Of a DNA stretch of 64,000 nt, positions 1 to 16,422 are shown one piece after another. The notes under the pieces were generated by a model. It saw nothing but the letters and a program-made list of their open reading frames with translations. It made no database searches and had not been told where the DNA came from. The stretch lies in assembly GCF_003790525.1 (NCBI RefSeq), contig NZ_CP033635.1; one strand, 5' to 3'. A program made the translations under genes and the position numbers. Positions within the stretch are counted from its first letter, which is position 1. Each line of letters starts with the position of its first letter. This stretch comes from Escherichia coli (GTDB lineage: Bacteria; Pseudomonadota; Gammaproteobacteria; Enterobacterales; Enterobacteriaceae).

Positions 1-542
1 TTGTTGATGACGCGACTGTCCTGCCGAACTTTCAGGACGATACAGTCAAGATAAACAATGGGGTAAACAGCATCCAGTGGTCTGTTTTGCCATTCTACAA
101 CCTGCTCCATCACGGCATCGGTGACCTTTGATATCAGTGCCGGTGAAACATCTGCGTCATACAGTTCTTTGAACGCAGTAGCTATCTCACGGGTGGTCAT
201 CCCTTTGGCATACAACGAGAGGATCTGGTTATCCATCCCGGTAATACGGGTCTGATTTTTCTTTACCAGTTGTGGTTCGAAGGTACCGTCACGATCGCGC
301 GGAGTACGCAGTTCCAGTGGACCGTCGCCTGTGATAACGGTCTTTGTGTAATAACCGTTGCGGGAGTTAGCTCCTGGTCTGGACTGATTTTTCTCATACC
401 CAAGATGGTGTGTCATCTCTGCATTGAGAGCGGCTTCAACGCTGAGCTTTTTCAGCAGCCGATCAAACTGACTGAGGTCTTCAGGGGTTTTGAGGTTTTT
501 GGCCAGTTCGTTAGCCAGAGCCTGTAACTGTTTTTCGTCCAT
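1..542 (-). CDS. tnpA: IS256-family transposase, N-terminal ~180 codons (3' part beyond window start)
   Basis: Same sequence as the N-terminal part of the 401-aa transposase at 47230..48435 (MDEKQLQALANELAKNL...). Confidence 0.85.
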   Translation of the reverse strand, partial: MDEKQLQALANELAKNLKTPEDLSQFDRLLKKLSVEAALNAEMTHHLGYEKNQSRPGANSRNGYYTKTVITGDGPLELRTPRDRDGTFEPQLVKKNQTRITGMDNQILSLYAKGMTTREIATAFKELYDADVSPALISKVTDAVMEQVVEWQNRPLDAVYPIVYLDCIVLKVRQDSRVIN

Positions 543-614
543 AAATTAACCTTCATTTGATGCTGGATTGAACATATCAAAATCAGGCAATTACACAAAT
601 CTATGTACAGGCTC
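1..614 (-). mobile_element. IS256-family insertion sequence (IS1414-like), partial copy running off the window start
   Basis: 1..614 matches 47894..48507 (right end of the complete copy) with about one mismatch; identity stops exactly at 614. Confidence 0.85.
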
Positions 615-3600
615 GTCGGGTGACAGGAGTCCATTGTGGACGGCTGGCATTCGTCTTCAGCAAACGCACCTCCAGTTCCCCTTCGCCAAATACCGACTGA
701 ACCAAATCAGCTGTCAAGGCGTCCCGATTGGGCGCTCGGGGTATCTGTCCCCTGGCTATCCACTGCTGCAAGCGGCTGCTGGCAAAACCCCTGAGATCAG
801 CGGCAACATCATTCAACCGGTCGGTCATTTTAATAATGGGCCGACCAGGCAGTACGGGGCAATCCTCAGGAATTTTGACCGACATCGCGCGCCTGAGAAG
901 CTTAATCGCCCCTTCCAGATGAGCAGTCAGATGGGTGACAGTCAGATCAATCGAACGTTGGAATTGCTCGAGGCTGTCCTGCACAGCTTCGAATACCTGC
1001 GAGATCCCTGTACCGACCCTCTCCAAATCGCCCAGCACTTCATGATAAGTTGCGATTGAGTCCAACTGCCGTAAGTATTCCTGACTGGCTCGGGCGTCTG
1101 GATCCTTGGCCAACTCTTCTTCGATGCGTTTGCGGAATTTTCCCCAGACCGTAGAGACGCGCATATTTTGCTGTTTTAGCGTTTCATTTAAACCGGCATA
1201 CACTTGGCATTGTGCAGCCAGATCGTCAGCATATTCTGTGATGCTCAGGATCCTACCAGGTAGACCTGCGGCAGAGCTCGGCGTAATGGGCTGGATCATC
1301 GCTTGAGCTGTTTTGGCGTTCTGTAGCCGCTCTTTCACATTTTCAATCTTTCTCAACAGCAGTGTCTTTTGTTCCAGTAGGAACTTGATCTGGTGTTCAA
1401 TCGCATAAAGGTTATTGACGATTTCAGCCAGAGACGTTTGGATTGCCTCTATCTCAATGGGCTTCTCTTCCCAGACAAAATCCTCGTCAAGTGCTTTACT
1501 AGCCTCCTCACAGCTTTGGGAAAATTTTTGCAGAGTTACCTGAGAGCTAATTAGATTTTGCGTGAATTGCTTTTGCTGTTCTTTGAGGCGTACGATGCTG
1601 TTATTAATTACCGTTAGCTCATTGATGGCCGCAGCTTTTACCTCATCCGGATATGTATTGTAGGTGGGTTGAGCGGTCAAACGATCAGAGGCGTAACGTT
1701 GTACCTGTTCAGCATCTTTCAGTTGTTGCTTGAGAACGGTCACTTGATCACCGTTGGCTGCTTCGAGCAATTTTTTGTGCGCCTGAGCAGCCATCTCATG
1801 GGCATATTCAGGGCTTCGTCCTTCCATACCTTCAGTCGCCGTAATCTCTGAATAGAACGGTTCGTTACACAGATTACTCCAGCTACCTATCTGGATAATT
1901 AAAAGGGTTTTCTCGGAGCGTTTGTTCTTCTCGAGCTCGCTCAGCCGTTCCAGCCTCTCTCTCTGGGTGTAAAGAGTGTTCTTGCTTCGCTGAATCTGTG
2001 CAGCTAACTGCTCCAGTTTCATTATCGCCGTTTCACGCTTCGCCCATTCTTTTTCTACAAAAAGACTCACTTTATCATGTGCTTTTTCTGCCTGAATTTT
2101 CTGCTGTTGGGCGTTGTTTAAACGCACCTGGACATCTCTCTTCTCGTCACGCAGTGTTTGCTCATCATGCTCAGCTTGCTTAAGTGCTGCATCAGCATTT
2201 TCCAGTATTAATAGAGCCAGCTCCCGTTGGTCAAGCAGTCCCGCCCAATGCTTACCATACTGTTCGTAATGCCGACTCCAGTCATTCCTGAAAGATTCCA
2301 GTACTTTAAGGGCGCTCTCCGTAGCCTTCACACTGACTTCCTGCGACGCTACAGTATTCTCCAGGTCTTGCAGCCGGGTTTCGTAAGCGGCCTGGCTATA
2401 TCCGTGCTTATCGGGGTTTGAGAGGACAACCTGTACTAATTCAGACGTTTCTCGGCGGAGATCTTGTGCTTCATCCAGCAAGTAAATAGCAATAGGTGCC
2501 TTCTTCCAGGGTAGGATCTCACTAATTTTATGGACCTGTTCAAACGTTACATTGTCGAGTGCGACCAGACTCAGGTAGCGGCCAGGGTTCTGATCGATCA
2601 CCGCTGCAATCTTTTGTGCATCATCGTTGTAAGCAGAGGCCAAATAGTGTGGAAATGTCCATAGCTTATCCCGTGCAATGCCCGCAGCATAAAACGCTTC
2701 AAGTGCCTCATTGACCTGCTTAGCAACCAGTTCATGTCCCGTCACCCTCAACTCGTCCAGTTCGTGCCGGGCTTGCAGTAAACGCTCTTTCATTCCATTC
2801 AGCGTTTGAGCGTTCGCATTCAATACTTTGTCGAGCTGCAATCCACACAGCTCGCTGTGCCAACTCGTGTCTTCAATATCCAGATCATGTCGCGTTGACG
2901 TTGGCAGTTTTTGATAGTTTTTTGCTAAAACTAAAGCACTATCCACAGCCGACTGGTGTTTTTGTTCAGCCAGAATGAGTTTTTGCTGGGCCTCACTTTT
3001 CTCAATTGATGCCTCCCGCACAACATTCAGCTGTGCTTCCAGCGCCTGCTCTTTCTGATGAAGAATTGTATTAGCCAGTTCTTCACTCTGCTTTGCATCG
3101 CGTAAGGTTAATTCCAGTCGGTATTGGGCTGCTACTGGTGTTTCATCCTTCTGGATCAACCCAGCTTCACATAATTCATTCCGTTGCGATTCGCCCTGAA
3201 ATTTGTCTCTTTTATATCCGTCACGCTCCGTTTCCAGACCACCCAACGTCTTTTGTATTTTATCGTATGACTGTCTGAGGACATGGCTTTCCCTGTCCAT
3301 CTGCCCTAATTCTTCCTCAAGCGTAGCCTCCTGCTGGCGATGTCTGTCGATTGCCCACTCTAATGTGCCCAAGGCTTCGCCAGCAGTACGCTCGAAAATC
3401 ACCTGTAGCGGCCTTTCCGTTTCACTTTGGAATACCTTCAGATCTTCATCTGCCTGGCGGTACTCATTCAGGGCCTTAGCATAGGCTTTGTAGTCTATAG
3501 CAGCGTGAGTAATCTCAATCTGGCGCTGATTGGTATCGGCCTCGTCTTGAAGCGCATCGACTATCGCTTTTTGTTTGTTGAACCGATGCTGCACGAGATC

Positions 3601-4686
3601 ATATTCAAGCAGTGCTCTGCGCTTACCTAACTGCTCACGCAGAGACATCGCCTGGCCAATATGCGTTTGCAAACTATCCATGTTATCTTCAAGCTGTGTC
3701 TGTTCAACCTGAGCATCCCCGACAAAGGCTGCGAGATCGCGCATTGCTTCTCGGAAGCCATCATCCAGCAGTTGCTGCTGTGCCTGGATGCTTTCCAGCT
3801 GTTTAGCCGGATCAAGAAACGCCAGCCAGTTAGCCAGCACATCCTTCAGGAAGGACTCGTTACGACGAATCCCCTCTAACTCTCCCTGACGTTCAACTTC
3901 ATGCGCTACCAGTTCCCGCAGCCGCTCAGCCGCATCTTTAGACATGGTGCAGGCGAAGAACGCGCCAAGGAAATCATGTTCAGTTTTGTATTCGATAAAA
4001 CGGGTCAGGCCACCTTCTTCGGAGTTGAAGGTCACCATTGTTTTGATAAGATCAACGTTAATTTGTTGTTCCAGTAAAAATGCGCGCCACTCGTTCTGTC
4101 TGGTGGTTTTACGCCAATGCATACCGCCTTCACTACCGGCCTTGAGATTAAGCCAGCTATCAAAACTGCGCAGGCTATTGGCATAGGGGCGCAGCTCAGA
4201 ATTGCGTTCCGCGCGGGAATAAGAAGGGACTTCATCAAACGGCGCGCCCATCAGGGAGTCGGGCGCATCACAAATAAACAGTGTGCGGTCAACATCATCT
4301 CCATTACGCTGATGAGCATGTCCTAGTAATAACGTTTGTCCTGATTCATTGACCATCTCAACCAAAACAACAGAGAGTTCTTTATAGAAGTAATTGCGGT
4401 AGTGGTATTCACTCTGGCGATGATTTGCCAGATATTGGGTGAAGTCACTAACGGACGGCTCAAAAATCGATAACAGCAGCGCGATGTAGGTCGACTTACC
4501 ACCCCCATTCACAAGCTGCTGATAAGTACTGGTCACCACCTTCGCATTCCTGACGGGCGAGCGCAGGCCTTCAACAACAGGGCTACTGACCGCTTGAGAC
4601 AGGCCAATATAGTCCAGTGTGAGGTCCTTGTAGAAAGCTTCTTCATGGCCTGCACCATCCATATAAACCCGTTTAATCAGCCACAT
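601..4686 (-). CDS. SMC-like P-loop ATPase with long coiled-coil arms (JetC/MksB/MukB-like); 3' end runs into the IS, probably C-terminally truncated
   Basis: 1361-aa ORF; N-terminal P-loop LVNGGGKSTY; >1000 aa of E/Q/K/L/R-rich heptad-like sequence; no C-terminal signature/Walker B head visible; last 4 codons and the stop (601..614) are IS-derived. Confidence 0.5.
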   Translation of the reverse strand: MWLIKRVYMDGAGHEEAFYKDLTLDYIGLSQAVSSPVVEGLRSPVRNAKVVTSTYQQLVNGGGKSTYIALLLSIFEPSVSDFTQYLANHRQSEYHYRNYFYKELSVVLVEMVNESGQTLLLGHAHQRNGDDVDRTLFICDAPDSLMGAPFDEVPSYSRAERNSELRPYANSLRSFDSWLNLKAGSEGGMHWRKTTRQNEWRAFLLEQQINVDLIKTMVTFNSEEGGLTRFIEYKTEHDFLGAFFACTMSKDAAERLRELVAHEVERQGELEGIRRNESFLKDVLANWLAFLDPAKQLESIQAQQQLLDDGFREAMRDLAAFVGDAQVEQTQLEDNMDSLQTHIGQAMSLREQLGKRRALLEYDLVQHRFNKQKAIVDALQDEADTNQRQIEITHAAIDYKAYAKALNEYRQADEDLKVFQSETERPLQVIFERTAGEALGTLEWAIDRHRQQEATLEEELGQMDRESHVLRQSYDKIQKTLGGLETERDGYKRDKFQGESQRNELCEAGLIQKDETPVAAQYRLELTLRDAKQSEELANTILHQKEQALEAQLNVVREASIEKSEAQQKLILAEQKHQSAVDSALVLAKNYQKLPTSTRHDLDIEDTSWHSELCGLQLDKVLNANAQTLNGMKERLLQARHELDELRVTGHELVAKQVNEALEAFYAAGIARDKLWTFPHYLASAYNDDAQKIAAVIDQNPGRYLSLVALDNVTFEQVHKISEILPWKKAPIAIYLLDEAQDLRRETSELVQVVLSNPDKHGYSQAAYETRLQDLENTVASQEVSVKATESALKVLESFRNDWSRHYEQYGKHWAGLLDQRELALLILENADAALKQAEHDEQTLRDEKRDVQVRLNNAQQQKIQAEKAHDKVSLFVEKEWAKRETAIMKLEQLAAQIQRSKNTLYTQRERLERLSELEKNKRSEKTLLIIQIGSWSNLCNEPFYSEITATEGMEGRSPEYAHEMAAQAHKKLLEAANGDQVTVLKQQLKDAEQVQRYASDRLTAQPTYNTYPDEVKAAAINELTVINNSIVRLKEQQKQFTQNLISSQVTLQKFSQSCEEASKALDEDFVWEEKPIEIEAIQTSLAEIVNNLYAIEHQIKFLLEQKTLLLRKIENVKERLQNAKTAQAMIQPITPSSAAGLPGRILSITEYADDLAAQCQVYAGLNETLKQQNMRVSTVWGKFRKRIEEELAKDPDARASQEYLRQLDSIATYHEVLGDLERVGTGISQVFEAVQDSLEQFQRSIDLTVTHLTAHLEGAIKLLRRAMSVKIPEDCPVLPGRPIIKMTDRLNDVAADLRGFASSRLQQWIARGQIPRAPNRDALTADLVQSVFGEGELEVRLLKTNASRPQWTPVTRRACT

Positions 4687-4688
4687 AC

Positions 4689-5585
4689 TTAAATCTCCGT
4701 CAAGCGTTGCGTTTCTGTGGTTCCAGTTGTAACTGGACGTTCATTGAGCGAAGGAAACTCCAGGGTATCTGCTAATGCTGCAAGATCGCTTTCAGCTAAA
4801 TCGGGCGACCGTTCTTCTACGGCTGGACTGATGCTCATGACAAAGCGCACCGTCTCTTCGATGCCAGTATGGCGCAGATAATGTTTGAGTTTTTGGGTCG
4901 GATACCAGTCGGACTCTCCCGACAGACTGCTGTCTTCGGCCAGAAAGCCTTCCTCCTGCAGCAGTTGTATCCAGCGCGTTGCCATTTCTGTTTGCGAGCG
5001 AATACTTGAGACACGCCCTACCTTTTCGTCGTGTATACGGGGAATACGTTCTTCCTGCACAAACCTGGCCGCCATAAGTAGGCCATCTACGGTATCGTCA
5101 CCCTCGGCCTTGCGCTGGGCAATCACCTGGTCGGCAACATTATTGAGCCTGGCTACCACCGAGGCGGCATTAATGGCGTTACTCTGACCGAACTCGACAC
5201 GAACGGTGTCTGGAGTTGGAAACAAATCAGCCAGCAACGCAATCAGAGTTAAGCCTGCAAACAGGCGCTGTTCTTTCCGTTCCTTACCCTGTTGCTCAGC
5301 CATTGTTTCAGGTAGCAAGCGTTTGTTCAGCCAACCCAAAGATGGGGAAAACGGACCTCGGCCATCTGCAGCCAGTAATACCCCGTAGGTCTCATGAATC
5401 CCAAGATACCGCAATTTCATACCTGTCGCGACGCCACGGATAATCTCTGTGAACAGGGCATCACCTTGCAGATCAAGAGCACGTTGAATCAGCTCATCCC
5501 CCATTTTATATCCCAGTGAATTCATAATTGCCTGCGTGGCAATCTCGGCGTAGCGTTTAGTTTGTTGATGCGCGTTGTCGTACAT
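4689..5585 (-). CDS. Middle subunit of the SMC-like operon (KITE/JetB/MksE-like by position and size)
   Basis: 298-aa ORF tightly packed (2-3 bp spacing) between the kleisin-like and SMC-like genes; no motif confirmed. Confidence 0.4.
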   Translation of the reverse strand: MYDNAHQQTKRYAEIATQAIMNSLGYKMGDELIQRALDLQGDALFTEIIRGVATGMKLRYLGIHETYGVLLAADGRGPFSPSLGWLNKRLLPETMAEQQGKERKEQRLFAGLTLIALLADLFPTPDTVRVEFGQSNAINAASVVARLNNVADQVIAQRKAEGDDTVDGLLMAARFVQEERIPRIHDEKVGRVSSIRSQTEMATRWIQLLQEEGFLAEDSSLSGESDWYPTQKLKHYLRHTGIEETVRFVMSISPAVEERSPDLAESDLAALADTLEFPSLNERPVTTGTTETQRLTEI

Positions 5586-5587
5586 AA

Positions 5588-7054
5588 CTACTCCTCAAAG
5601 GGGTATAAGGGAGCAACCGTTAACAGTTTGATATTGTTAGCCCGCCAGAGCGTTGTTTCGATAGCGCCGTCTATCTCCACTTCTATTGCGGGATCGCTGT
5701 TAGCTGCCAGGCTGCCAATATGGAGTAAACAAACCTGTTGCTCTTGTTCGGATAATTCTTCGCCCTCATAGGCGTCAAAAACATCTCTAAAGCTCACATG
5801 CCCCCAATTCTTCAATCGGTCACTAACCCAATCGCTGCATTTTTTAATGACAGATTCAGGGATACCTCGCAGGTTGGTTTCAATAGCTACAGGCTGATCG
5901 GTGAGGTCCTGTATCTCATGTGGAAGCGCCTGTTCAAATCTATCGAGATAAAGGTTCAGCAGCGCCTCAAGGTCAAACAGAATGTGCCGATCATCATCCT
6001 GTCTTCGGGGAGCCAACAGGCGTGCGGTGAGATCATCGATTTCCTTTTCGACAGTGTCGGGGGAATGAGACAGCAAGGGCTTGAGTGCACCTTTTTCCAG
6101 TGTTTCCCGAAAGAGGGTATTATCTCTGGGAATAATGAGTTTCAGACGAGCTCGCTCAAAATCTTTGTTAACATCAAGTAAGCAGTCTTGATAGCGCTGC
6201 GTAAAAGCGCAGACCTCAGCAAAAATCTCCTGTGCCCTACGTAGCTTATTTAATTTGTCGGGATTTATTTTCGAACTTCCTTCAACCAGCATTTCGGTAA
6301 TGGCCGACATTGAGTTCTGGATATGTTCCAAAACCTCTCGGGTTTTATCAAAGGAATCATTGAGTACGGGACGGATATCGTGTGCATAAGATGCACTCAA
6401 ATCACCAGACTGGGCGGCACGCACTTTCATCCGCATTCCAATCAGATATTGCTCCAGTTGCCGCTGTGTTGATTGGATCTGGTGTACTGCCTTGTCGATC
6501 TCTCCGCGACGGATGGTTTTAAGCGTGCGCCAGGCCAGAATCGCAGCGCGTTCTATCGGCGTTTCATCCAAGCGCAGGGTATAGAACAACATTCCTTCAT
6601 CAGTCAGCGACCAGAGAATATCATCTGAGCCGGATAGCTGGTCATAGCGTACCAGACGGACTATCTGCTCTTCGGAATGCGTTCGTTGCGAGAAATCATA
6701 ATAACGGAGGCGGAAAGGATCTTTGATCGCCGCAAAAATCTTGCTGGCCACTTGTGCGTAGTCGGGTTCTTCTTGTCCCGGATAGGCTTCATTGAGGTGC
6801 CCAACCAGACATAACTCCGCTTCCTTACGCGTCATTCCAGGCTGGCGCTCGCGGTCAGCATAATAAAGCATGGCGTCAAAGAGATACATGATTGCCGCCA
6901 GCGCATCAAGCTCAACACCATCGAACGGATTTCGCTGAAGGGCGCTATATATTGAATCCAGCGTCCGCACGACCAGTAAGGCGTGAGACTGAATAGACAG
7001 CTCACGACGTGCCATTGATTCATTACGAGCCTGCTCCAAAAACCCTAGCGACAT
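5588..7054 (-). CDS. First gene of the SMC-like operon (kleisin/JetA/MksF-like by position and size)
   Basis: 488-aa ORF; RBS GGGAG upstream of the ATG; operon order kleisin-KITE-SMC as in mukFEB/jetABC. Confidence 0.4.
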   Translation of the reverse strand: MSLGFLEQARNESMARRELSIQSHALLVVRTLDSIYSALQRNPFDGVELDALAAIMYLFDAMLYYADRERQPGMTRKEAELCLVGHLNEAYPGQEEPDYAQVASKIFAAIKDPFRLRYYDFSQRTHSEEQIVRLVRYDQLSGSDDILWSLTDEGMLFYTLRLDETPIERAAILAWRTLKTIRRGEIDKAVHQIQSTQRQLEQYLIGMRMKVRAAQSGDLSASYAHDIRPVLNDSFDKTREVLEHIQNSMSAITEMLVEGSSKINPDKLNKLRRAQEIFAEVCAFTQRYQDCLLDVNKDFERARLKLIIPRDNTLFRETLEKGALKPLLSHSPDTVEKEIDDLTARLLAPRRQDDDRHILFDLEALLNLYLDRFEQALPHEIQDLTDQPVAIETNLRGIPESVIKKCSDWVSDRLKNWGHVSFRDVFDAYEGEELSEQEQQVCLLHIGSLAANSDPAIEVEIDGAIETTLWRANNIKLLTVAPLYPFEE

Positions 7055-7099
7055 AACATTCTCCCTCTGAGACGGAAGCCACTATAGTACTCGCCCGCC

Positions 7100-7126
7100 A
7101 ATTAAGCAAAGAAACTTTGCTTAATT
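7100..7126. promoter_or_regulatory. Perfect 12-3-12 palindrome (AATTAAGCAAAG aaa CTTTGCTTAATT) in the divergent promoter region; candidate operator
   Basis: Read directly in the 175-bp AT-rich intergenic region between the divergently transcribed genes at 7054 and 7230. Confidence 0.5.
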
Positions 7127-7229
7127 TTTATTTATAGCAATGTTATTTGTTTTGATGTCATTCGCCTTCTATACTCAGTCGGTATATCAAACCGCAATTG
7201 ATTAACCTGCAAATAAGAATAAAACTGAT

Positions 7230-8123
7230 ATGTACTACTCAAAGTTTCTTGAGAAACACAAATCCCCCCTCAGCCACGCACAATGGTTGCGCTTGCGCTA
7301 TATTGAGCGCCAGCTACTGTGGGAACGAAAGGTCACTTCGCGCATGATTGCTGAAGAGTTTGGCGTCTCGGCGCAACAAGCTCGTACTGATGTAAGAACC
7401 TATATGGAGGTCGCTCCAGGCAATGCTATTGAGAAGGGGGCCGGCCGAAAAGGGTATTTCCCCAGTACGACGTTTACGCCTGTTTTGCTGGGAGACAACG
7501 ATCTGGTCTGGCGTACGACGGTAGAATTTCAACCGCCGCAAGCGGCCCACGCGCAGGAAATCCCGCTCATCCATCGCGCAGTGCATAGCCGCACGCTGGC
7601 AATTTTTTTGTCAGCAATCGAACAGAAAGGACAAGTAAAAGTGACTTATGCGTCAATGGAAAACCCGGAAGGCATATCTCGTACACTAAGCCCTACGGTA
7701 ATTATCACCGTTAACGGGCGTCAGCATGTGCGAGCCTATGACTGGGGAAGTTCGGCGTTTAAGGACTTTGTTTTGGCGCGATTTCTGGACTTGCCGGAAC
7801 TGATTGTTCCTGCACCCGCCCCGCCACGCAAAGATACCGCGTGGGAGGTCATAATCCCCGTGCGTTTTATAGCCAATCCAACACTAAACAAAGCGCAACA
7901 AGAGGTAATTAAGCGGGACTATTTACTTGAACCCTCTGAATTCAACATTCGTGCACCAATGATTTTTTATTTATGCCCTGAAAACAATCTGCCTAAAACA
8001 GATGATGAATATGCACAAGCTACTGACGCCAGCAGCCACGGCCCCTTTATCTACCCTGTTCTAGCTGTGCACGCCCAAACAGGGGAGCCTATTCATAAGT
8101 ACCGCCATGCAGGTGAGAGATAG
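7230..8123 (+). CDS. Putative HTH-WYL-type transcriptional regulator (BrxR/CapW-like architecture)
   Basis: 297 aa; N-terminal HTH-like segment (SRMIAEEFGVSAQQARTDVRTYME); central region resembling a WYL domain; divergent from the SMC-like operon. Confidence 0.45.
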   Translation: MYYSKFLEKHKSPLSHAQWLRLRYIERQLLWERKVTSRMIAEEFGVSAQQARTDVRTYMEVAPGNAIEKGAGRKGYFPSTTFTPVLLGDNDLVWRTTVEFQPPQAAHAQEIPLIHRAVHSRTLAIFLSAIEQKGQVKVTYASMENPEGISRTLSPTVIITVNGRQHVRAYDWGSSAFKDFVLARFLDLPELIVPAPAPPRKDTAWEVIIPVRFIANPTLNKAQQEVIKRDYLLEPSEFNIRAPMIFYLCPENNLPKTDDEYAQATDASSHGPFIYPVLAVHAQTGEPIHKYRHAGER

Positions 8124-8319
8124 ACATTCTGTTTACTAATAATTTATAGCCATTCACTGTTCCTGCATCATAGATATGGTGCAGCAACATTAAACACCAG
8201 CCATCTAAAAATTATGATTTATTAATTTCTGATTCAGTTAAATTCCTCTGAAAATAGATCCGTTATAGTTCCATGCATCTTTTGAAATCCCGACCAAATA
8301 ATGGGGTCGGCAAACATCT

Positions 8320-8520
8320 ATTTGAGACGTTGGTTCTCATCCTCAAGATCTTTGATTATTTTAATATCAGAAGATTCCATACCACCGTATCTGGACTTCC
8401 AGTTGTAGTAAGTGGCTCAGAGAAGCCTGCCTCCCGGCAGACATCTTTAACAGTTCGCCCGTATTCAAGCGATTTAATCACGGCGATAATCTGATGCTCA
8501 GTAAAAGGGGCTTTACGCAT
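8320..8520 (-). pseudogene. IS3-family orfA remnant (HTH transposase N-terminus), frameshifted
   Basis: Minus-strand translation MRKAPFTEHQIIAVIKSLEYGRTVKDVCREAGFSEP then, after a 1-nt frameshift, TYYNWKSRYGGMESSDIKIIKDLEDENQRLK; no orfB follows. Confidence 0.6.
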
Positions 8521-8594
8521 AGCGATCTCCTTCATTGGCAGATTGATTATGCCGGAGGATCTCTAAATGTTAATGGCACGATTATGCGGGATAT

Positions 8595-9500
8595 TTACAA
8601 TACCAGTCCAACCCTCAGCTTACTGCAATGCCCATCAAGAGGGATGGTCCACATTGACGTATCAAAATCGCTCTCTGACCAGCGAGCAAAACGCAGCTCA
8701 CTGGATCGAATAAAGATAAGCAGAGTGAGTTCTGTCGCCCAGCGGGTTAGCGGCCTGCCGGTATAGCTGTCTATTTTCTCAAGTAACTCAGGGATGCGCT
8801 TTAACTCCAGCGCCGGACGATGCTGTCGATTACTGGAAGCAACCGCCCCCGCCATCTCCTGCGCCGGATTGTAATGAATTAACCCGCTTTGCACTGCATA
8901 ACGCATGATGGCCGTGGTGCGCTGTTGAAGGCGGGAAGCCACTTCAAAACGTCCAGATTTCTCCACGGCTTTAATGGGAATTAACAGATCGCGGGTGCCC
9001 AGTTCAGCAATATTGCGAGCACCAATTGTTGGGAAGATATTGTCCTCCAGGCTCTTTTTTCCACGATTAGCATGATCTTCCGACCATTTTTGGTTTGTCA
9101 CGAGCCACTCTCTGGCAACCTTCTCGAAAGTAATAATCTCTTTCGCCTGCTCTTCTTTCACAGCACGTTTATGCTCACGAGGATCGATACCAGCAGCGAC
9201 CAGCTTTCTGGCCTCTTCCCTTTTCTTCCGCGCATCCGCCAGCGAAACATCCGGGTAAACGCCGAACGCCATCAAATGTTGTTTACCACCAAAACGGAAA
9301 CGAAATCACCAATACTTTGAACCGCCAGGTTTTACAAGTAAAGACATGCCGTCGCCGTCAACAAGTGAATACTCTTTCTCCTCTGACTTCACAGAACGAA
9401 CTTTAGTATCCGTTAGGGCAATAATGGTCTTCCTTCCATTGGTATCTCGTGAGTATACAAGCAATATCGAATCGGCAAATATACTCATAAGTATACTCAC
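8595..9500 (-). pseudogene. P4-type tyrosine integrase, frameshifted and lacking the catalytic C-terminal domain
   Basis: ORFs 9306..9500 and 8595..9275 together align with the N-terminal ~260 aa of the intact integrase at 19562..20827 (LTDTKVRSVK, FGVYPDVSLADAR, IMRYAVQ, SSELRFARW); ends just after WTIP. Confidence 0.85.
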
Positions 9501-9592
9501 AAGCCTGTTGATGTGGGTTGAGTCAGGTTGACTTCAGTTGAGAAGAAAAGCTGGAAAAGCCTTGCGTGGCGCGGATTTCAGGCATAAAAAAA

Positions 9593-9608
9593 GACCTCAG
9601 TTGAGGTC
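9593..9608 (-). terminator. Rho-independent terminator-like hairpin
   Basis: GACCTCAGTTGAGGTC palindrome preceded by an A-run on the plus strand (T-run on the minus strand). Confidence 0.45.
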
Positions 9609-9622
9609 TATTTACATACTTT

Positions 9623-9641
9623 TGGTGCGAAGGCCGGACTC
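9623..9641 (-). other. tRNA 3'-end-like remnant; probable att direct repeat at the junction of the two islands
   Basis: TGGTGCGAAGGCCGGACTC resembles the leuX 3' end TGGTGCCGAAGGCCGGACTCGAACC (one indel, one mismatch). Confidence 0.5.
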
Positions 9642-9819
9642 AAACATCAAAATAAGTTAATGATAAAAAACAAATAATAAAACACAACAATGAAATATGC
9701 CCCCTTTTGTGCCCCCACTGTTTTTCTGACCAATCTATTTTCAGCCCATCAATAAATCGGAAAGTTAAATCATTTTTAATCAGTAAGTTTGGATCCGTAG
9801 CTCGGCTCCAAACCAGTGC

Positions 9820-10140
9820 ATCTTTTATCCACATAAAAAATTTTTTTTCGAAAGAACTGTTCACACTGTTCACCTTTCTGTTTTCTCCTTTTATTTCATA
9901 GTGATAGGTGGTGAATAATGGGTGAAGGGTGAACATTCGATTCTTCACCTCCGGCATTCTGCCGGTGTGACTTGTGCAGGGGATTAATTTCCCGTGCTGA
10001 AATCACACCGGAAGAAAAAAGTTTTTTTTGATTTGATTGTTCACACTGTTCACCTTTCGTTTTTCTCTTTTAATTTCAGTGTGATAACGGGTGAATATAC
10101 GGTGAAGGGTGAACAGTGGATTGTTCACCTTCGGGGAATT
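9820..10140. repeat. P4 crr-like region: two tandem ~120-bp direct repeats carrying TGTTCACC/GGTGAACA octamers
   Basis: TGTTCACACTGTTCACC at 9858..9874 and 10037..10054; GGTGAAGGGTGAACA in both units; lies just past the 3' end of the alpha gene. Confidence 0.7.
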
Positions 10141-10179
10141 CAGGGATAAAAAAAGACCGGCAGATGCCGGTCAGGTGGG

Positions 10180-12513
10180 TCAGGCTGTTGCAGGGTCGTC
10201 ACATTTTGGCAGCCAGTCGCCGTAGCTTTCCTCTTTCAGCGTCAGGTTGGTCTGTATCCCCTGTTTGGTATGGCGCTTCTCGTAATTCAGTCCGTATTCC
10301 TTCAGCATCACCGGCAGCCCCAGCCCGAACATTTTCAGACTGAGTACATTCCGGTAGCCGTTTGCCTCCATGTAGGCCAGATAGGCGTGATAGAGGTATT
10401 TACGGTAATTGCGCGGGATGATACTGGCGTTCCCCATATACATGCCGCTGGTCTGCGGCAGGGTTTCCAGATAGCCGATAAAATCAAACGTCGGGTCGGC
10501 ATCCCGTTTGATGTTCAGTGCCTCGTCTGAGTTCTGCTGGGACTGAAGCAGTGACCGGGCGAGCATCGGGTCGCTGAACTTCTGCATCAGGTGACGCACG
10601 ATGACCGCCAGCTCGCGGGTGATTTTGTCCTTAAGCTGCGGGTCGCGCTCCTGCGGGGCTATCTGTTCCGGGAAGTGAATAATCACCCGCCGGCGTGACA
10701 CGCCGCCGCTGCGGTCGGTGAAGCGCATCGGGTTATTGTTCACGGCCAGAATTACCGCCGGGATATGCGTGGAGTATGCATCCCGGTATTTCGGGTCAAC
10801 GGACACCGCATCGCCGCCGGTGATGGCCTTGAGTCCGGCACCGTCGCCGCTCCATTTTTCCTGGTCCGGCAGGCGTATCAGTGAGAAGCCAGTTAACGCG
10901 GCACGTTCACGCGGGGATTCCAGCGTCTCGATGGTGGCCGACGTGGCGTTATCCTCCCCGGCCAGCAGGGTGGCTATTTCGGCCATGATACTTTTGCCGC
11001 TGCCGCCGGGACCGGTCACCTCCAGAAAGAGCTGCCAGTCGTAGCGGTTTGCCAGCACCATAAACAGTGCGGCCAGAATCACGTCGCGTTTTTCCGCACG
11101 GCCACCGGCGGCACGGTCAAGCCAGCACCAGAACGCGGGGGCGTGGGTCTCCAGCGTTTCACCGTCCACCGGCGGGGTGAAATCCACATCGCACAGGGTG
11201 CGCATCCAGTGTGACGGACTGTGCGGGTGGAACGTGCCGTTCTGCGTGTCGAGCACGCCGTTACGAAAGCCAATCAGGCGGCGGGAGGGGGCTTCCTGCT
11301 GCGGAATAATCAGCTTCAGGGTGTCCACCACGGAGGCCACCTTCCCGGAGGAGAACGGCGCGCGCAGACGCTGAAACAGCCCGGCCACATCCCGGGCAAA
11401 GTCCTGTGGTGGCAGCACCTTCCAGACACCATTTTCATAACGGGACAGAAGCTGGCCGTTGGCATCGACCGCGAGCGCCTCGCCGTAATGCTCATAGATA
11501 CGCATGGCCTTTTCGCTGGTACTCATGGCGGAAAACTCCGCTTCACTCATGGTGTCGAACGGGCTTTCAGCCGGTGGCCGGATGGCATCGTAAATGGCCT
11601 TACGGGTGGCCTCCCCGCCGTACTGCGTGAAGGCATCATTCCAGTCACCGAAGACCGGTGGCAGGGCAACAACACCTTCACACGCATCTGCGGCTGCGGC
11701 GGCTTTTTTCTGGCCATCACCGCTGAGGTCACGGTCAGCGGCAAGGACAATCTGACAGGCGGGGTGCTTCTGCCGGGCAAGGCTGGCCAGAGAAAGGAGG
11801 TTCACGGAAGAAAGCGCCACCATCACCGTTTCACCGGTCAGGTGATGCACGGTAAGTGCGGTCGCGTATCCCTCCGCTATCCACAGACGTTTTCCGGCCT
11901 GATTCTGTCCTTCAAGGATGTGACAGGTGCCCCTGACCTGTCCGCCTTTCAGGGTGCGCTTACGGCCGTCAGCACTGATTAACTGAAGGTTAACCAGTTC
12001 GCCGCTGTCGTCATACAGTGGCACCACAAGGTCACCGGCGCGCCAGCTCACGCCACCGGCTCTGTGTGTGCCGGTCAGCATCCGGCATTCCCGGCCGGGA
12101 AAGCCCTTGCGGGTCAGGTAGGCGTTACCGGTTCCGGGACGGGTTTTCGCCATCAGGGTTTGTGCCAGTGCGGCGGCGTTCTTCCGGGCAGCGTCTGTTT
12201 CAGCACCGGCGGCAGCCGTCACTGCCGGGTCAGCCGGGGGCAGGCTGCCGGTCACGGCAGCCACCTTTGTGGCCGCGTCGGACGGGGAGACACCAAACAC
12301 CTTTTCAACCAGTTTCAGGCCGTCACCGGCACCACACTGATTGCAGTACCAGGTGCCGCGCCCCTCCCTGTCATCAAAACGGAAGCGGTCACTCCCGCCA
12401 CAGACCGGACAGGGCTGATGACGGTTCTTCAGCACCTGAATCCCCAGCGCCGGGAGAATACGCGGCCAGTGGCCGAGCGCATGGCTGACGGTGGCGGTTA
12501 CGTTCATTTTCAT
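10180..12513 (-). CDS. P4 alpha-type primase-helicase
   Basis: 777 aa (the length I recall for P4 alpha); N-terminal zinc-binding CPVCGG...CNQCG; P-loop GPGGSGKS. Confidence 0.9.
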   Translation of the reverse strand: MKMNVTATVSHALGHWPRILPALGIQVLKNRHQPCPVCGGSDRFRFDDREGRGTWYCNQCGAGDGLKLVEKVFGVSPSDAATKVAAVTGSLPPADPAVTAAAGAETDAARKNAAALAQTLMAKTRPGTGNAYLTRKGFPGRECRMLTGTHRAGGVSWRAGDLVVPLYDDSGELVNLQLISADGRKRTLKGGQVRGTCHILEGQNQAGKRLWIAEGYATALTVHHLTGETVMVALSSVNLLSLASLARQKHPACQIVLAADRDLSGDGQKKAAAAADACEGVVALPPVFGDWNDAFTQYGGEATRKAIYDAIRPPAESPFDTMSEAEFSAMSTSEKAMRIYEHYGEALAVDANGQLLSRYENGVWKVLPPQDFARDVAGLFQRLRAPFSSGKVASVVDTLKLIIPQQEAPSRRLIGFRNGVLDTQNGTFHPHSPSHWMRTLCDVDFTPPVDGETLETHAPAFWCWLDRAAGGRAEKRDVILAALFMVLANRYDWQLFLEVTGPGGSGKSIMAEIATLLAGEDNATSATIETLESPRERAALTGFSLIRLPDQEKWSGDGAGLKAITGGDAVSVDPKYRDAYSTHIPAVILAVNNNPMRFTDRSGGVSRRRVIIHFPEQIAPQERDPQLKDKITRELAVIVRHLMQKFSDPMLARSLLQSQQNSDEALNIKRDADPTFDFIGYLETLPQTSGMYMGNASIIPRNYRKYLYHAYLAYMEANGYRNVLSLKMFGLGLPVMLKEYGLNYEKRHTKQGIQTNLTLKEESYGDWLPKCDDPATA

Positions 12514-12527
12514 GGTGTTGTTCTCCT

Positions 12528-12848
12528 TCAGTGCAGTACCGGCGCTTTTATGTGACGGGCACAGAGTTCATCCATCACAACCAGCCCGAGAAAGGACAGC
12601 GACGGCGCGGCCTTCAGGGGGCCGGATTCCATTAAATCTTCCAGCAGGGCACAGGCTATCTGACGCCCTTTTTCCTCACCGTGCTGGCGCAGATAAAAGC
12701 CTTCCAGCTCAGCGGCGATGGCCGCCTCCAGTGACTCAAGGGTGAGATGCGGGTAGCGGTGCTGACGTTCGCACACGGTCAGCCAGGCACAGGCGACAGC
12801 GCGACGGTAAAGGGCAGCGCGTAAGACGGGCGGTAAGGGTGTTTTCAT
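12528..12848 (-). CDS. Hypothetical protein, P4-like accessory ORF
   Basis: 106-aa ORF immediately upstream of alpha on the same strand. Confidence 0.55.
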
Positions 12849-12983
12849 TTGTTTTCCTCCCTGTGACAGATGACTGCATTCCGTGCCGGTTGCATTAACT
12901 GATAAGGCATATCTGCGTCTCCTGAAGACGTGCGTATCCCTGCGCGAATACGCACATTTAATTTTTCGGGTGTCGTTTTTTAA

Positions 12984-13439
12984 TTACAGATAATTGCGGT
13001 AACTGTTATCCGGGGTGATTTCCGGGTCAGGCTCCGTGCGGGGAATTTCCCGCCATTCCCGCGCCACCGGTGCCGCCCGGCTGACCGGAACAGTGTCCTG
13101 CGGGTAAATATCCAGATATTTCTCCCGCCATTTCTGTAATTCCGGGTCTCCGGCCATTTCTTTCAGTACCGCATGCCGGTTTACGGGGCTGCGTTTGAAC
13201 AGGTCAGGACGGTCACAGGTAAATTCCCGCAGAAAACGCCCCAGCGGGATGTCTGTGGTGCGCCCGTCGGCGAGGATACGCACAAGGATACTGAATTTAC
13301 GGCGGTACGGGTTCCAGACAATGTCCGGGCAGCGGTACGGCATTTCCCACGGAATACCGTCTTCCAGAATGCCGACCACGGCCACATCGGGAAAACCGGC
13401 AGAACGGTAAATCTCACCGGGCTGGGGAAAATCAAACAT
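12984..13439 (-). CDS. Hypothetical protein, P4-like accessory ORF
   Basis: 151-aa ORF in the same operon orientation. Confidence 0.55.
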   Translation of the reverse strand: MFDFPQPGEIYRSAGFPDVAVVGILEDGIPWEMPYRCPDIVWNPYRRKFSILVRILADGRTTDIPLGRFLREFTCDRPDLFKRSPVNRHAVLKEMAGDPELQKWREKYLDIYPQDTVPVSRAAPVAREWREIPRTEPDPEITPDNSYRNYL

Positions 13440-13800
13440 GCGTCCTGTCTCCCCGGTCTTTCTGCTGGGCGAGAAAATCGCGGCACAGGCCTTTGGCTTT
13501 CAGCTCATTCAGCACAAAATCAATATCTTCATTCAGGTAGCTGAAAATATGCGGAATGTAGAGCTGATGCAGGCCGGAGAGTTCACGGTGAATCAAATCA
13601 CCCCCAACAAACTGGGATACGGCGCTGGCGCGGTTGAGCTTATGGTAAGCCTCAATGCTGAGGTGTTCACGGGCGTCATGACGCGCTGAGACGGTCTGAG
13701 GGGCTTTTTTATTACGCACGGGACACCTCCACCACCGGCAGACGGGCAGCAAGGGAGAGCACATAGTCACGGACAAGGGAACGGCGGGCGCTGCGTTCAT
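13432..13800 (-). CDS. Hypothetical small protein in the position of P4 epsilon; start uncertain
   Basis: ORF 13432..13959 with internal ATG candidates at 13800 and 13764; overlaps another frame (13712..14302). Confidence 0.3.
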
Positions 13801-14298
13801 CACCGGCGACGGTGCGAAGCATGCAGATACGGGGATGACGGTCTGCGCGACGGACAGCCGCAAACACAAAGACAAATTCAGGGTGTGAGGGGGTAAGGGT
13901 TGTAGCCATAAGGCAGCCTCCTTCGAGTAGCAAATAACTGCTATCGCCGGAGTTCTCACGCTCGATGGCGATAGCCCAGACGGGGGTGAGAATACCGGCC
14001 TCGAAGAATACCGGCCAGCCCGGAGGCTGCCCCGCCTGAGCTACCATTGACTCAGTGGCATAACATGCGATTGCGAACAGGATAATACCTGCACGGCAAA
14101 CCACACGCCACACCATAATCTGGCGCTCTGTGGCGTTGATTGCGACACAAAAAAAGACGCATGGCGCGTCATATGTCGCCTTCGAGTTACACGGGTTCTC
14201 ACGCCCGGCTGCCGATTTTGCGGCAACGGAAAGACTATATCCGCAAATGCCGGAAAAAGGCAAGCCAGAAAAAGGGAGTTTTTGCAGAGCGGGCATCA

Positions 14299-14565
14299 TC
14301 ATGCGTCATACCCCCGTTTGCGTCCGGCAATGCGGCCGGCCATCCATGCGGTGACTTCAGAGTGCAGCCAGGCCACATTTTTACCGCCAAGACTCACCTG
14401 CGGCGGAAATTCCCCCTTACGGATGAGTTCGTAGATGGTCGAGCGTGACAGGCCGCACAGGTGCATCACTTCCGGAAGACGCAAAAAACGCTCCTGTGTG
14501 ATGTCCGGCTGCGGCATCAGTGGCGTCACAGGGGCGGGAGACGGGGAAGAAAAAACAGCTTGCAT
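14299..14565 (-). CDS. AlpA-family phage transcriptional regulator / excisionase-like protein
   Basis: 88 aa; HTH segment [27 protein letters not shown] typical of the AlpA family. Confidence 0.75.
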
Positions 14566-14844
14566 CGGGCTACCTCGTTAATGTCCATACAGCACCGGAT
14601 AAGTCTGTCCGGCTTCGGGTAGCGCTTTATTTTGTGAATATTTTCAGCAGACGCAACAGGGGGGATTTGTTCCGGCAGCCTTACAATGCTTGTGTGTTTT
14701 TTGTTCATCTCCACTTAAAGTCATTTAAAGCCACTTAAAGCAATTCGTAATTTTTATAGTGAAATACAAATCGTTTTTTCTTATTCATTCCCGGCGAATT
14801 AATAAAAACAAACAGTAGTAAACAGCACAAAAAGCCCATCAACG

Positions 14845-16349: not shown

Positions 16350-16422
16350 GGGCTGCCGGTTAACACCGGCCGTCGCCGCACACCGTATTTTTATTCTTCA
16401 GCATGATGAGAAAGAGATAACG

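What the first reader, a model, noticed from the sequence alone, without database searches (positions are those of the whole stretch)
7055..8123. Divergent HTH-WYL-like regulator with a perfect 27-bp palindrome in the shared promoter region
The 297-aa protein has an HTH and a WYL-like middle region, the architecture of BrxR/CapW-type defence regulators. The intergenic region contains AATTAAGCAAAG-aaa-CTTTGCTTAATT (7100..7126), a textbook operator candidate, suggesting the SMC-like operon was under dedicated repression.
Basis: partly seen in the sequence, partly recalled or inferred. Interest (0 to 1): 0.5.

Follow-up and report, generated by a model that had tools for sequence, protein, structure and literature searches.

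The report
Wadjet defence regulator and its operator
This is a BrxR/CapW-type DNA-binding regulator gene facing an anti-plasmid "Wadjet" operon, with a conserved 27-bp palindrome between them that most likely is the regulator's binding site; it is a well-defined new example of a known kind of defence-gene switch.

Summary
A perfect 12+3+12 palindrome lies at 7100-7126, in the 175-bp gap between a 297-aa gene (7230-8123, +) and a divergent operon.

The protein belongs to the BrxR/CapW wHTH-WYL-WCX family. Sequence gives BrxR 7T8K at E 3e-28, or 8e-50 with a profile. All 15 best Foldseek matches are BrxR or CapW. The four ssDNA-pocket residues of CapW are conserved.

The divergent operon is a type III Wadjet (JetA3, JetB by position, JetC3). 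In this window an IS256-family element truncates jetC.

In 15 orthologous cassettes from Enterobacterales, Aeromonadales and Oceanospirillales, a dyad sits at the same position. Its core is GCAAAG-WWA-CTTTGC, and its outer arms change in a compensating way. A sister Wadjet III locus without the regulator also lacks the palindrome.

The best sigma-70-like jetA promoter puts its -35 inside the jetA-proximal arm in 14 of 15 loci. That is the geometry reported for Acinetobacter BrxR.

The most likely mechanism is a dimeric repressor occluding the Wadjet promoter, released by a nucleic-acid ligand. This is inferred, not shown.

RefSeq already labels the gene as WYL or BrxR family, and surveys have reported BrxR relatives next to Wadjet. 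I rate it a new member of a known kind, of modest interest.

The parts
7230..8123 (+). Gene for a 297-aa BrxR/CapW-family regulator. Approximate domains: wHTH residues 16-78, WYL 118-199, WCX 200-297. It is 100% identical in DNA to E. coli SMS-3-5 WP_000291809.1.
   Evidence: ORF. Pfam WYL 1.4e-6. PADLOC WYL 2.7e-16. PDB sequence hits BrxR 7t8k 3e-28 and CapW 7tb5 2.5e-23. Profile hits 8e-50 to 4e-39. Foldseek top 15 are all BrxR or CapW. RefSeq names it 'WYL domain-containing protein' or 'BrxR family HTH transcriptional regulator'.
7368..7397 (+). Predicted recognition helix of the wHTH, S47-A-Q-Q-A-R-T-D-V-R56. It aligns with the SRQQ base-contacting motif of Acinetobacter BrxR and with S42/Q45 of S. 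maltophilia CapW.
   Evidence: HMMER alignments. Contact residues are taken from PMC9122589 and PMC9122588. The helix is nearly invariant in alignment A1.
7653..7781 (+). WYL ligand pocket: S142, R164, R168 and R184. The motif is RQHVR (164-168) instead of RWHVR.
   Evidence: These residues align with S144/R164/R168/R184 of R. leguminosarum CapW, which contact ssDNA (alignment; PMC11662680). They are invariant in A1.
7100..7126 (.). Perfect 12+3+12 palindrome, the predicted operator. The half-site consensus across orthologues is TTAAGCAAAG. The dyad centre is at 7113.
   Evidence: Conserved at the homologous position in 15 loci, with 6-12 of 12 positions complementary (mean 9.4 over the 14 loci scored) against 3.1 +/- 1.5 at control centres.
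7104..7109 (-). Predicted -35 hexamer (TTGCTT) of the Wadjet (jetA) promoter. It lies inside the jetA-proximal arm of the palindrome.
   Evidence: It is the best-scoring sigma-70-like promoter on the jetA strand at the same aligned position in 14 of 15 loci. The tool's own stricter scan did not list it, because the -35 matches only 3 of 6.
7081..7086 (-). Predicted -10 hexamer (TATAGT) of the jetA promoter, with a 17-nt spacer. The predicted start of transcription is near 7074.
   Evidence: ACTATA on the + strand is conserved in 12 of 14 aligned loci. Promoter scoring.
7147..7175 (+). Predicted promoter of the regulator gene: -35 TTGTTT at 7147-7152, a 17-nt spacer, and -10 TATACT at 7170-7175.
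   Evidence: It is the best + strand promoter at the same aligned position in 11 of 15 loci, and second-best in one more. TATACT is conserved.
7137..7149 (+). Conserved box GCAATGTTATTTG, function unresolved. It may hold the -10 (T[A/G]TTAT, 7141-7146) of a second regulator promoter whose -35 (TTGCTT, 7117-7122) lies in the other palindrome arm.
   Evidence: Conserved in the alignment. It is not a match to the half-site matrix. The weak alternative promoter appears.
5588..7054 (-). jetA, type III Wadjet (488 aa). It is the first gene of the divergent operon.
   Evidence: PADLOC JetA3, E = 0, full length.
4689..5585 (-). Gene in the jetB position (298 aa). No profile recognises it.
   Evidence: Its position between jetA and jetC is conserved in all cassettes. 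No PADLOC, Pfam or NCBIfam hit.
615..4686 (-). jetC (SMC-like ATPase), truncated at its 3' end. It encodes 1361 aa against 1478 aa in intact relatives.
   Evidence: PADLOC JetC3, E = 0, covering profile positions 1-1358 of 1478. Identity to SMS-3-5 stops at window position 615. The intact gene in SMS-3-5 is 4437 nt.
1..614 (-). End of an IS256-family insertion sequence that interrupts jetC. jetD is not in the window.
   Evidence: Sequence. NCBIfam IS256 family transposase, 1.1e-46.

Best explanation
The 297-aa protein is a BrxR/CapW-family (wHTH-WYL-WCX) transcription factor. It travels as a fixed five-gene cassette with a type III Wadjet anti-plasmid system: jetD-jetC-jetB-jetA on one strand, the regulator on the other.

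**Proposed mechanism**
- A dimer of the regulator binds the 27-bp palindrome at 7100-7126.
- The jetA-proximal arm of the palindrome contains the -35 hexamer of the jetA promoter. The bound dimer therefore blocks RNA polymerase and keeps Wadjet expression low.
- It may also damp the regulator's own divergent promoter.
- A ligand, most likely single-stranded DNA or a related product of DNA damage or degradation, binds the conserved basic pocket of the WYL domain. This spreads the two wHTH domains and releases the operator, raising Wadjet expression.

**Status of each step**
- Shown here: family membership, the conserved cassette, the conserved operator-like dyad, its co-occurrence with the regulator, and conservation of the pocket residues.
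- Inferred: binding of the protein to this site, the promoter positions, the direction of the effect (repression), and the identity of the ligand.

In this strain the regulated operon is already broken by an IS256-family insertion in jetC, so the regulator and operator are intact but control a defective system.
For: **Family**
- PDB sequence hits: BrxR 7t8k 3e-28, CapW 7tb5 2.5e-23, 7tb6, 9c5g and BrxR 7qfz.
- Profile hits of 8e-50 to 4e-39 cover positions 5-252 of 290.
- The AlphaFold model has pLDDT 77, and its 15 best Foldseek PDB matches are all BrxR or CapW, at E 1e-18 to 2e-14.
- Homologues carry PF26109, PF13280 and PF26107.

**Target operon**
- JetA3 and JetC3 match at E = 0. JetD3 in SMS-3-5 matches at 4e-244.
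- The same cassette occurs in all 13 regulator-anchored loci, with unrelated flanks. It also occurs in Pectobacterium, which was found through JetA.

**Operator**
- The perfect palindrome is far beyond chance.
- A dyad at the same position is conserved in all 15 loci, with a near-invariant CTTTGC core.
- The arms change in a compensating way:
  - The two E. coli alleles differ at 5 of 175 positions, and two of those are the mirror pair T/A to C/G. By my own arithmetic this has a probability of about 0.003.
  - Carnimonas has CATCAG.CAAA / TTTG.CTGATG.
  - Aeromonas has ATGCAAAG / CTTTGCAT.
  - Pectobacterium has TTATACAAAG / CTTTGTATAA.
- A sister Wadjet III locus with intact jetABC but no regulator (L023), and a decayed one (L022), both lack the palindrome.
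- There is one site per genome.

**Promoter overlap**
- The best jetA-strand promoter has its -35 inside the arm in 14 of 15 loci.

**Precedent**
- Acinetobacter BrxR binds a 10-5-10 site at -51 to -27 that overlaps the -35 (PMC9122589).
- E. fergusonii BrxR binds an 11-5-11 site (PMC9122601).
- capW is divergent from its operon and represses in both directions (PMC9122588).
- CapW is released by ssDNA through S144/R164/R168/R184 (PMC11662680). These equal S142/R164/R168/R184 here, which are invariant.
Against: - No binding or expression data exist for this protein.
- Both predicted -35 hexamers are weak (3 of 6), and the tool's own promoter scan did not report them.
- A site centred near -39 on a weak -35 is also where class II activators sit, so position alone does not prove repression.
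- The eponymous Trp of the RWHVR motif is Gln here (RQHVR). Allosteric coupling or the ligand may therefore differ from CapW.
- In several orthologues the dyad is degenerate, with 6-8 of 12 positions complementary. The right arm is better conserved than the left.
- The same 18 specified bases occur in 37 unrelated metagenome stretches with no BrxR-like gene. The sequence alone is therefore not diagnostic.
Confidence: 0.75

Rival explanations
1. The regulator binds the palindrome but acts as an activator of the Wadjet promoter, in a class II-like way from about -39, or as a dual regulator. It would then resemble the WYL activators DriD and PafBC rather than a repressor.
For: The predicted jetA -35 is poor (TTGCTT, 3 of 6) and lies under the site, which is typical of activator-dependent promoters. 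DriD and PafBC are the next-best structural relatives, at E about 1e-6. The Acinetobacter BrxR study itself described separable effects of the gene and of the protein (PMC9122589).
Against: The close relatives, at E 1e-28 to 1e-14, are BrxR and CapW. BrxR(Efer) and CapW are shown to be repressors. DriD and PafBC are about 12 orders of magnitude weaker matches. The site geometry equals that of the BrxR(Acin) site that overlaps a -35.
Confidence: 0.1
2. The palindrome is not the regulator's site. It is a hairpin-forming element (a terminator, a cruciform or a recombination site) or the site of a host factor, and its conservation comes from promoter function.
For: It scores as terminator-like, with a 12-bp stem and a T-run, and folds at -9.7 kcal/mol with z = -4.5. 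Compensating changes would also preserve a hairpin. The arm contains the predicted -35, so part of the conservation could be promoter sequence. The same palindrome occurs in unrelated metagenome contigs.
Against: Both flanking genes point away from it, so nothing needs terminating there. The core is conserved in sequence, while several loci carry mismatches that would break a stem. The arm that is not the jetA -35 is the better conserved one. The cassette moves between three orders of bacteria, which argues against a host-specific factor. The palindrome is absent wherever the regulator is absent. No Rfam family matches.
Confidence: 0.06
3. The regulator's real target is not Wadjet. Its target is itself alone, or whatever lies downstream of it, such as BREX in Brenneria, and Wadjet is merely a neighbour.
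For: BrxR genes classically sit upstream of, and co-oriented with, the operon they control. In Brenneria goodwinii a type I BREX operon starts 130 nt downstream of the regulator on the same strand.
Against: The downstream neighbours differ in every other locus: integrase remnants, a DNA ligase, a type I restriction system, IS66 and others. Wadjet III upstream is constant. There is only one operator copy per locus, and it lies on the Wadjet side.
Confidence: 0.06

Closest known systems
BrxR of Acinetobacter sp. NEB394 (PDB 7T8K, 7T8L; Luyten et al. 2022, PMC9122589)
   Same: This is the best sequence and fold match (E 3e-28; profile 8e-50; Foldseek 1.4e-18). It has the same wHTH-WYL-WCX layout. 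It binds a dyad-symmetric, A/T-centred site of 25-27 bp. Its site lies at -51 to -27 and overlaps the -35; here the predicted span is about -52 to -26.
   Different: Identity is only about 28-33%. The base-contacting motif SRQQ is SAQQ here, and the half-site sequence differs (ACCGTAAAAA there, TTAAGCAAAG here). BrxR is co-oriented upstream of BREX, whereas this gene is divergent from a Wadjet operon. The Trp of RWHVR is Gln here.
CapW of CBASS systems (PDB 7TB5, 7TB6, 9C5G; PMC9122588, PMC11662680)
   Same: The gene is divergently transcribed from the defence operon it controls, with a palindrome in the shared promoter region. The four ssDNA-contacting residues are conserved (S142/R164/R168/R184 here). 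A dimeric repressor model applies.
   Different: The partner system is Wadjet, not CBASS. CapW sites are 19-24 bp and overlap the -10, not the -35. Arg32 of CapW, a DNA contact, is not conserved here.
BrxR of Escherichia fergusonii pEFER (PDB 7QFZ; Picton et al. 2022, PMC9122601)
   Same: It belongs to the same family (profile E 1.2e-49). Its R-BOX1 is an 11-5-11 inverted repeat with the same 27-bp span as 12-3-12. That paper's survey already lists Wadjet among the systems found next to BrxR homologues.
   Different: R-BOX1 lies downstream of the brxR promoter. A second R-BOX controls the next promoter there, whereas only one site is found here.
WYL activators DriD and PafBC
   Same: They share the WYL domain and sense ssDNA or DNA damage.
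   Different: The matches are far weaker (Foldseek about 1e-6; PafBC profile 2.8e-5). They have a different overall architecture and act as activators.

Membership tests
BrxR/CapW wHTH-WYL-WCX regulators | N-terminal winged helix-turn-helix | tested here: met
   HMMER alignments to 7t8k, 7tb5, 7tb6, 9c5g and 7qfz start at residues 5-20 and cover the wHTH. PF26109 WHD_BrxR hits the 97%-identical homologue. The model has helices 16-32, 37-44 and 48-61 plus a beta wing at 66-78. Generic Pfam HTH models match only weakly.
BrxR/CapW wHTH-WYL-WCX regulators | Central WYL domain with the conserved basic ligand pocket (Ser plus three Arg) | tested here: met
   Pfam WYL 1.4e-6. PADLOC WYL 2.7e-16. S142, R164, R168 and R184 align with the ssDNA contacts of Rl CapW and are invariant in 20 homologues.
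BrxR/CapW wHTH-WYL-WCX regulators | Trp of the RWHVR signature | tested here: not met
   The motif is RQHVR (Q165) in all Wadjet-linked homologues and RLHVR in the sister clade. The Trp packs against the linker helix in CapW (PMC9122588). It is a signature rather than a requirement, because the Pfam and PDB matches stand without it.
BrxR/CapW wHTH-WYL-WCX regulators | C-terminal WCX extension | tested here: met
   PF26107 BrxR_CTD hits the homologues. Alignments run to residue 250-262. Foldseek aligns 260-306 columns.
BrxR/CapW wHTH-WYL-WCX regulators | Domain-swapped homodimer | not testable with these tools
   Only a monomer could be modelled. The TM-score of 0.4-0.5 with high rmsd is what a monomer model gives when compared with swapped chains.
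BrxR/CapW wHTH-WYL-WCX regulators | Binds a 19-27 bp dyad-symmetric site in the promoter of the adjacent defence operon | tested here: inconclusive
   A conserved 27-bp dyad that overlaps the predicted jetA -35 co-occurs with the regulator. Binding itself cannot be tested here.
BrxR/CapW wHTH-WYL-WCX regulators | Encoded next to a defence system | tested here: met
   The gene is divergent from type III Wadjet in all 15 cassettes.
Type III Wadjet (JetABCD) | JetA3, JetC3 and JetD3 homologues in one operon | tested here: met
   JetA3 and JetC3 match at E = 0. JetD3 matches at 4e-244 in the SMS-3-5 copy. In this window jetC is cut at 615 and jetD is missing.
Type III Wadjet (JetABCD) | Recognisable JetB | tested here: not met
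   The 298-aa protein in the JetB position has no PADLOC, Pfam or NCBIfam match. It is assigned by position only.
CapW in the strict sense (CBASS-associated) | Adjacent CBASS operon | tested here: not met
   The neighbour is Wadjet III, and no CBASS genes occur in the cassette.

The most novel reading that the evidence does not exclude
Wadjet III would be an inducible defence rather than a constitutive one. Its BrxR-like repressor would be released by single-stranded DNA. One source of that signal would be the degradation of plasmids that Wadjet itself has just cut, which would give a self-amplifying anti-plasmid response. The Trp-to-Gln change in the WYL signature would mark a clade with altered coupling or ligand preference.
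Probability: 0.15. Interest if true: 0.55.

Novelty: new member of a known kind. Interest (0 to 1): 0.3.

Why it matters
Wadjet is usually discussed as a constitutively expressed anti-plasmid system. The CapW authors themselves remarked that Wadjet 'should be constitutively expressed', while also noting that CapW/BrxR relatives are found next to it (PMC11662680).

This locus offers a compact, testable case:
- one regulator;
- one operator, with a defined consensus of TTAAGCAAAG-N3-CTTTGCTTAA;
- two predicted divergent promoters;
- natural operator alleles in E. coli.

It could show whether, and by what signal, Wadjet expression is switched. For genome annotation, the fixed five-gene cassette suggests that the regulator should be counted as part of this Wadjet III subtype. 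None of this overturns current understanding.

Tried and rejected
1. **A hairpin in the jetA leader that hides the ribosome-binding site.** Dyads showed up near the jetA start in some loci. RNAalifold found no consensus structure (three of the 13 slices were misregistered). The distal arm would also lie upstream of the predicted transcription start. Dropped.

2. **The conserved box GCAATGTTATTTG as a third half-site.** A position matrix built from 30 half-sites gives no consistent extra hit in the intergenic region.

3. **Reverse association through plasmids.** JetA3 relatives on 141 Salmonella megaplasmids are remnants with IS26 inserted 25 nt upstream of jetA. They say nothing about the regulator.

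4. **A metagenome scan for the exact palindrome.** 12 of 49 stretches are the cassette. The other 37 are unrelated and hold no BrxR-like ORF. The bare sequence is therefore not specific in a very large database.

5. **Other reads of the palindrome and the protein.**
   - NCBIfam gives no family for the regulator, although newer RefSeq records name it BrxR family.
   - No Rfam family matches.
   - A PurR/LacI-type site was considered because of GCAAA..TTTGC. I rejected it because the 3-nt spacer and the missing central CG do not fit (my own knowledge).

6. **Finding the exact source genome.** No complete E. coli genome in the collection carries the IS256-jetC junction.

Full report
**Observation**

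The window carries an ORF at 7230..8123 (+) that encodes 297 aa. Upstream, a minus-strand ORF starts at 7054, which leaves a 175-bp divergent intergenic region. Within that region lies the perfect inverted repeat AATTAAGCAAAG-AAA-CTTTGCTTAATT, at 7100-7111 / 7115-7126.

The repeat is not a chance feature:
- Perfect arms of 12 nt or more with a loop of 8 nt or less occur twice in the 64-kb window, against 0.025 expected.
- None of 3000 shuffles of the intergenic region produced one.
- The core GCAAAG-N3-CTTTGC is unique in the window.

**Where it comes from**

Positions 5500-8400 are 100% identical to the chromosome of E. coli SMS-3-5 and several other strains. The region is a defence island at the leuX tRNA-Leu locus. 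In SMS-3-5 the island also holds a type II Zorya, an HNH endonuclease and a phosphorothioate-dependent restriction enzyme. RefSeq annotates the gene as 'WYL domain-containing protein'. Newer records call it 'BrxR family helix-turn-helix transcriptional regulator'.

Only 65 of 5426 complete E. coli genomes carry the intergenic region. Each has one copy, always on the chromosome.

**The protein**

- Pfam finds a WYL domain at residues 122-188, at 1.4e-6. Generic HTH models match only weakly.
- A sequence search of the PDB returns only BrxR and CapW: 7t8k 3e-28, 7tb5 2.5e-23, 7tb6, 9c5g and 7qfz. The matches cover residues 10-260.
- A profile of 20 homologues raises these to 8e-50 to 4e-39. PafBC follows far behind at 2.8e-5.
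- Homologues carry the precomputed Pfam families WHD_BrxR (PF26109), WYL (PF13280) and BrxR_CTD (PF26107).
- An AlphaFold2 model has mean pLDDT 77, with the inter-domain linker at 93-116 disordered. Its 15 best Foldseek matches in the PDB are all BrxR or CapW, at 1e-18 to 2e-14. DriD and PafBC come next, near 1e-6.

Two sets of functional residues can be read from the alignments.
- **DNA contacts.** These are partly kept. The motif is S47-A-Q-Q, against SRQQ in Acinetobacter BrxR. S47 and Q50 correspond to S42 and Q45 of S. maltophilia CapW.
- **Ligand pocket.** The four residues that contact single-stranded DNA in the R. leguminosarum CapW complex are S144, R164, R168 and R184 (PMC11662680). 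They align with S142, R164, R168 and R184 here, and all four are invariant among the homologues.

One departure stands out. The Trp of the RWHVR signature is Gln in every Wadjet-linked homologue.

**The neighbour**

The divergent operon is a type III Wadjet:
- JetA3 and JetC3 match at E = 0 in PADLOC.
- JetD3 matches at 4e-244 in the SMS-3-5 copy.
- The 298-aa protein in the JetB position is recognised by no profile.

In this window jetC stops matching intact copies at position 615, where an IS256-family element begins. JetC is therefore 1361 aa instead of 1478 aa, and jetD is missing. The regulator and operator are intact, but the operon they face is broken. No complete E. coli genome in the collection has this junction.

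**Comparative test of the palindrome**

I collected 13 loci through the regulator:
- a second E. coli allele;
- Photorhabdus, Brenneria, Serratia and Pseudescherichia;
- Aeromonas, Zobellella and Oceanimonas;
- Halomonas, Carnimonas and Endozoicomonas;
- two metagenome contigs.

The regulators in these loci are 76-99% identical to the one in the window. One further locus, Pectobacterium, was found through JetA. All carry the same five-gene cassette, while the flanks on both sides differ.

The intergenic regions can be aligned. At the homologous position every locus has a dyad with a 3-nt A/T spacer:
- 6-12 of the 12 arm positions are complementary (mean 9.4 over the 14 loci scored). Other centres in the same regions give 3.1 +/- 1.5, and 0.5% of them reach 8.
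- The half-site consensus is TTAAGCAAAG.
- The arm distal to jetA (CTTTGC) is nearly invariant.

The outer arm positions change in a compensating way:
- The two E. coli alleles differ at 5 of 175 positions. Two of the five are the mirror pair T to C and A to G. By simple arithmetic this is a roughly 0.003 event.
- Carnimonas, Aeromonas, Zobellella and Pectobacterium have different but symmetric arms.

Two JetA-anchored loci lack the regulator. L023 has intact jetABC, and Cobetia L022 is decayed. Both lack the palindrome, although the jetA-proximal leader can still be recognised. So the dyad is present wherever the regulator is present and absent where it is absent.

**Promoter anatomy (inferred)**

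I applied a simple sigma-70 scoring to all 15 loci.

*jetA strand.* The best promoter falls at the same aligned place in 14 of 15 loci:
- The -35 lies at dyad positions -3/-4 to -8/-9, inside the jetA-proximal arm. In the window this is TTGCTT, 7109 to 7104.
- The spacer is 17 nt.
- The -10 is TATAGT, 7086 to 7081.
- The palindrome would then span about -52 to -26 relative to a start near 7074.

*Regulator strand.* The best promoter is TTGTTT (7147-7152), 17 nt, TATACT (7170-7175). It is the top hit at this position in 11 of 15 loci and second-best in one more. This puts the dyad centre near -69.

Both -35 hexamers are weak, and the tool's stricter scan missed them.

A conserved box, GCAATGTTATTTG (7137-7149), is unexplained. 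It does not match the half-site matrix. It could hold the -10 of a second regulator promoter whose -35 is in the other arm.

**Comparison with known systems**

- **Acinetobacter BrxR** binds a 10-5-10 pseudo-palindrome with an A/T centre, at -51 to -27, overlapping a -35 (PMC9122589).
- **E. fergusonii BrxR** binds an 11-5-11 R-BOX, the same 27-bp span as 12-3-12, and represses (PMC9122601).
- **capW** is always divergent from CBASS. CapW binds 19-24 bp palindromes in the shared promoter region and represses in both directions (PMC9122588). Single-stranded DNA releases it (PMC11662680).

The present locus combines the gene arrangement of CapW with the site placement and best sequence match of BrxR.

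The family's co-localisation with Wadjet has already been noted at survey level. I found no paper that studies a Wadjet-linked member or its operator.

**Rivals**

- **An activator reading cannot be excluded from position alone.** The -35 is weak and the site is centred near -39. The close relatives are repressors, however.
- **A hairpin or terminator reading is unlikely.** The element folds well as a single strand and scores as terminator-like. Against this, both genes diverge from it, the core is conserved in sequence while several loci carry stem-breaking mismatches, and no Rfam family matches.
- **A different target operon is unlikely.** It is suggested only by Brenneria, where BREX follows the regulator. 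Elsewhere the downstream neighbours vary, and the single operator lies on the Wadjet side.

**Verdict**

This is a new, well-delimited member of a known kind, already named as such in RefSeq. The operator, the promoter layout, the fixed cassette and the Trp-to-Gln change are details I did not find described. Interest is modest, at 0.3. Its main value is as a clean system for asking whether Wadjet is inducible.

Noticed in passing
window 1-614 (IS) and 615-4686 (jetC): An IS256-family element (transposase N-terminus, NCBIfam 1.1e-46) interrupts jetC about 117 codons before its end, so the Wadjet system is disabled in this strain. None of the 5426 complete E. coli genomes in the collection has this junction.
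   Followed up: partly
window 49339-49366: A second perfect palindrome, 14+0+14 (GGAATAAGCGATAATTATCGCTTATTCC). It lies about 30 nt beyond the stop-codon end of the minus-strand ORF 49395..50084. It is the only other palindrome with perfect arms of 12 nt or more in the window.
   Followed up: no
window 4689-5585 (-): The 298-aa protein in the JetB position of this type III Wadjet has no match in PADLOC, Pfam or NCBIfam. JetA3, JetC3 and JetD3 all match their PADLOC models at full length.
   Followed up: partly
window 7137-7149: The box GCAAT(G/A)TTATTTG is as well conserved across the 15 cassettes as the operator core. It is neither a half-site match nor clearly part of the main predicted promoter. 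It may be the -10 of a second regulator promoter mirrored on the other palindrome arm.
   Followed up: partly
L020 (Salmonella Infantis plasmid pN55391, NZ_CP016411.1) 7900-9550: 141 Salmonella megaplasmids, mostly conjugative, carry a remnant of jetA3 (78.5% aa identity). IS26 is inserted 25 nt upstream of the jetA start codon, next to a sul1 resistance region. The regulator, the operator and the rest of Wadjet are gone.
   Followed up: partly
L023 (Logan SRR7538462 contig) 2468-9536: A sister lineage of this Wadjet III (JetA 84% identical, jetABC apparently intact) has neither the regulator gene nor the palindrome upstream of jetA. It is a natural regulator-less variant.
   Followed up: partly
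L012 (Brenneria goodwinii) 9001-18894: Here the regulator sits between Wadjet III (divergent) and a type I BREX operon (brxA starts 130 nt downstream, same strand). One BrxR-like protein may therefore serve two systems. No second operator copy was found near brxA.
   Followed up: partly
L024 (E. coli Z226-7) 201-233; window 7115-7120 equivalent: One E. coli strain carries a substitution in the near-invariant operator core (CTTTGC to CTTTTC). It may be a natural operator-down allele.
   Followed up: no
L008 and L011 (Oceanospirillaceae, Marinobacterium) around 9001-9830: The nearest outgroup of the regulator is a 284-aa clade, 36-40% identical, with RLHVR instead of RQHVR. It lies among housekeeping genes (purT, an MsbA-like ABC exporter, a LacI-type regulator) and not next to a recognisable defence system.
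   Followed up: partly
window 8273-9300: Downstream of the regulator lie only fragments of a transposase and a tyrosine integrase, as annotated in SMS-3-5. This marks the edge of the integrated island, and in this strain another island with cbtA/yeeU-type toxin-antitoxin genes follows.
   Followed up: no
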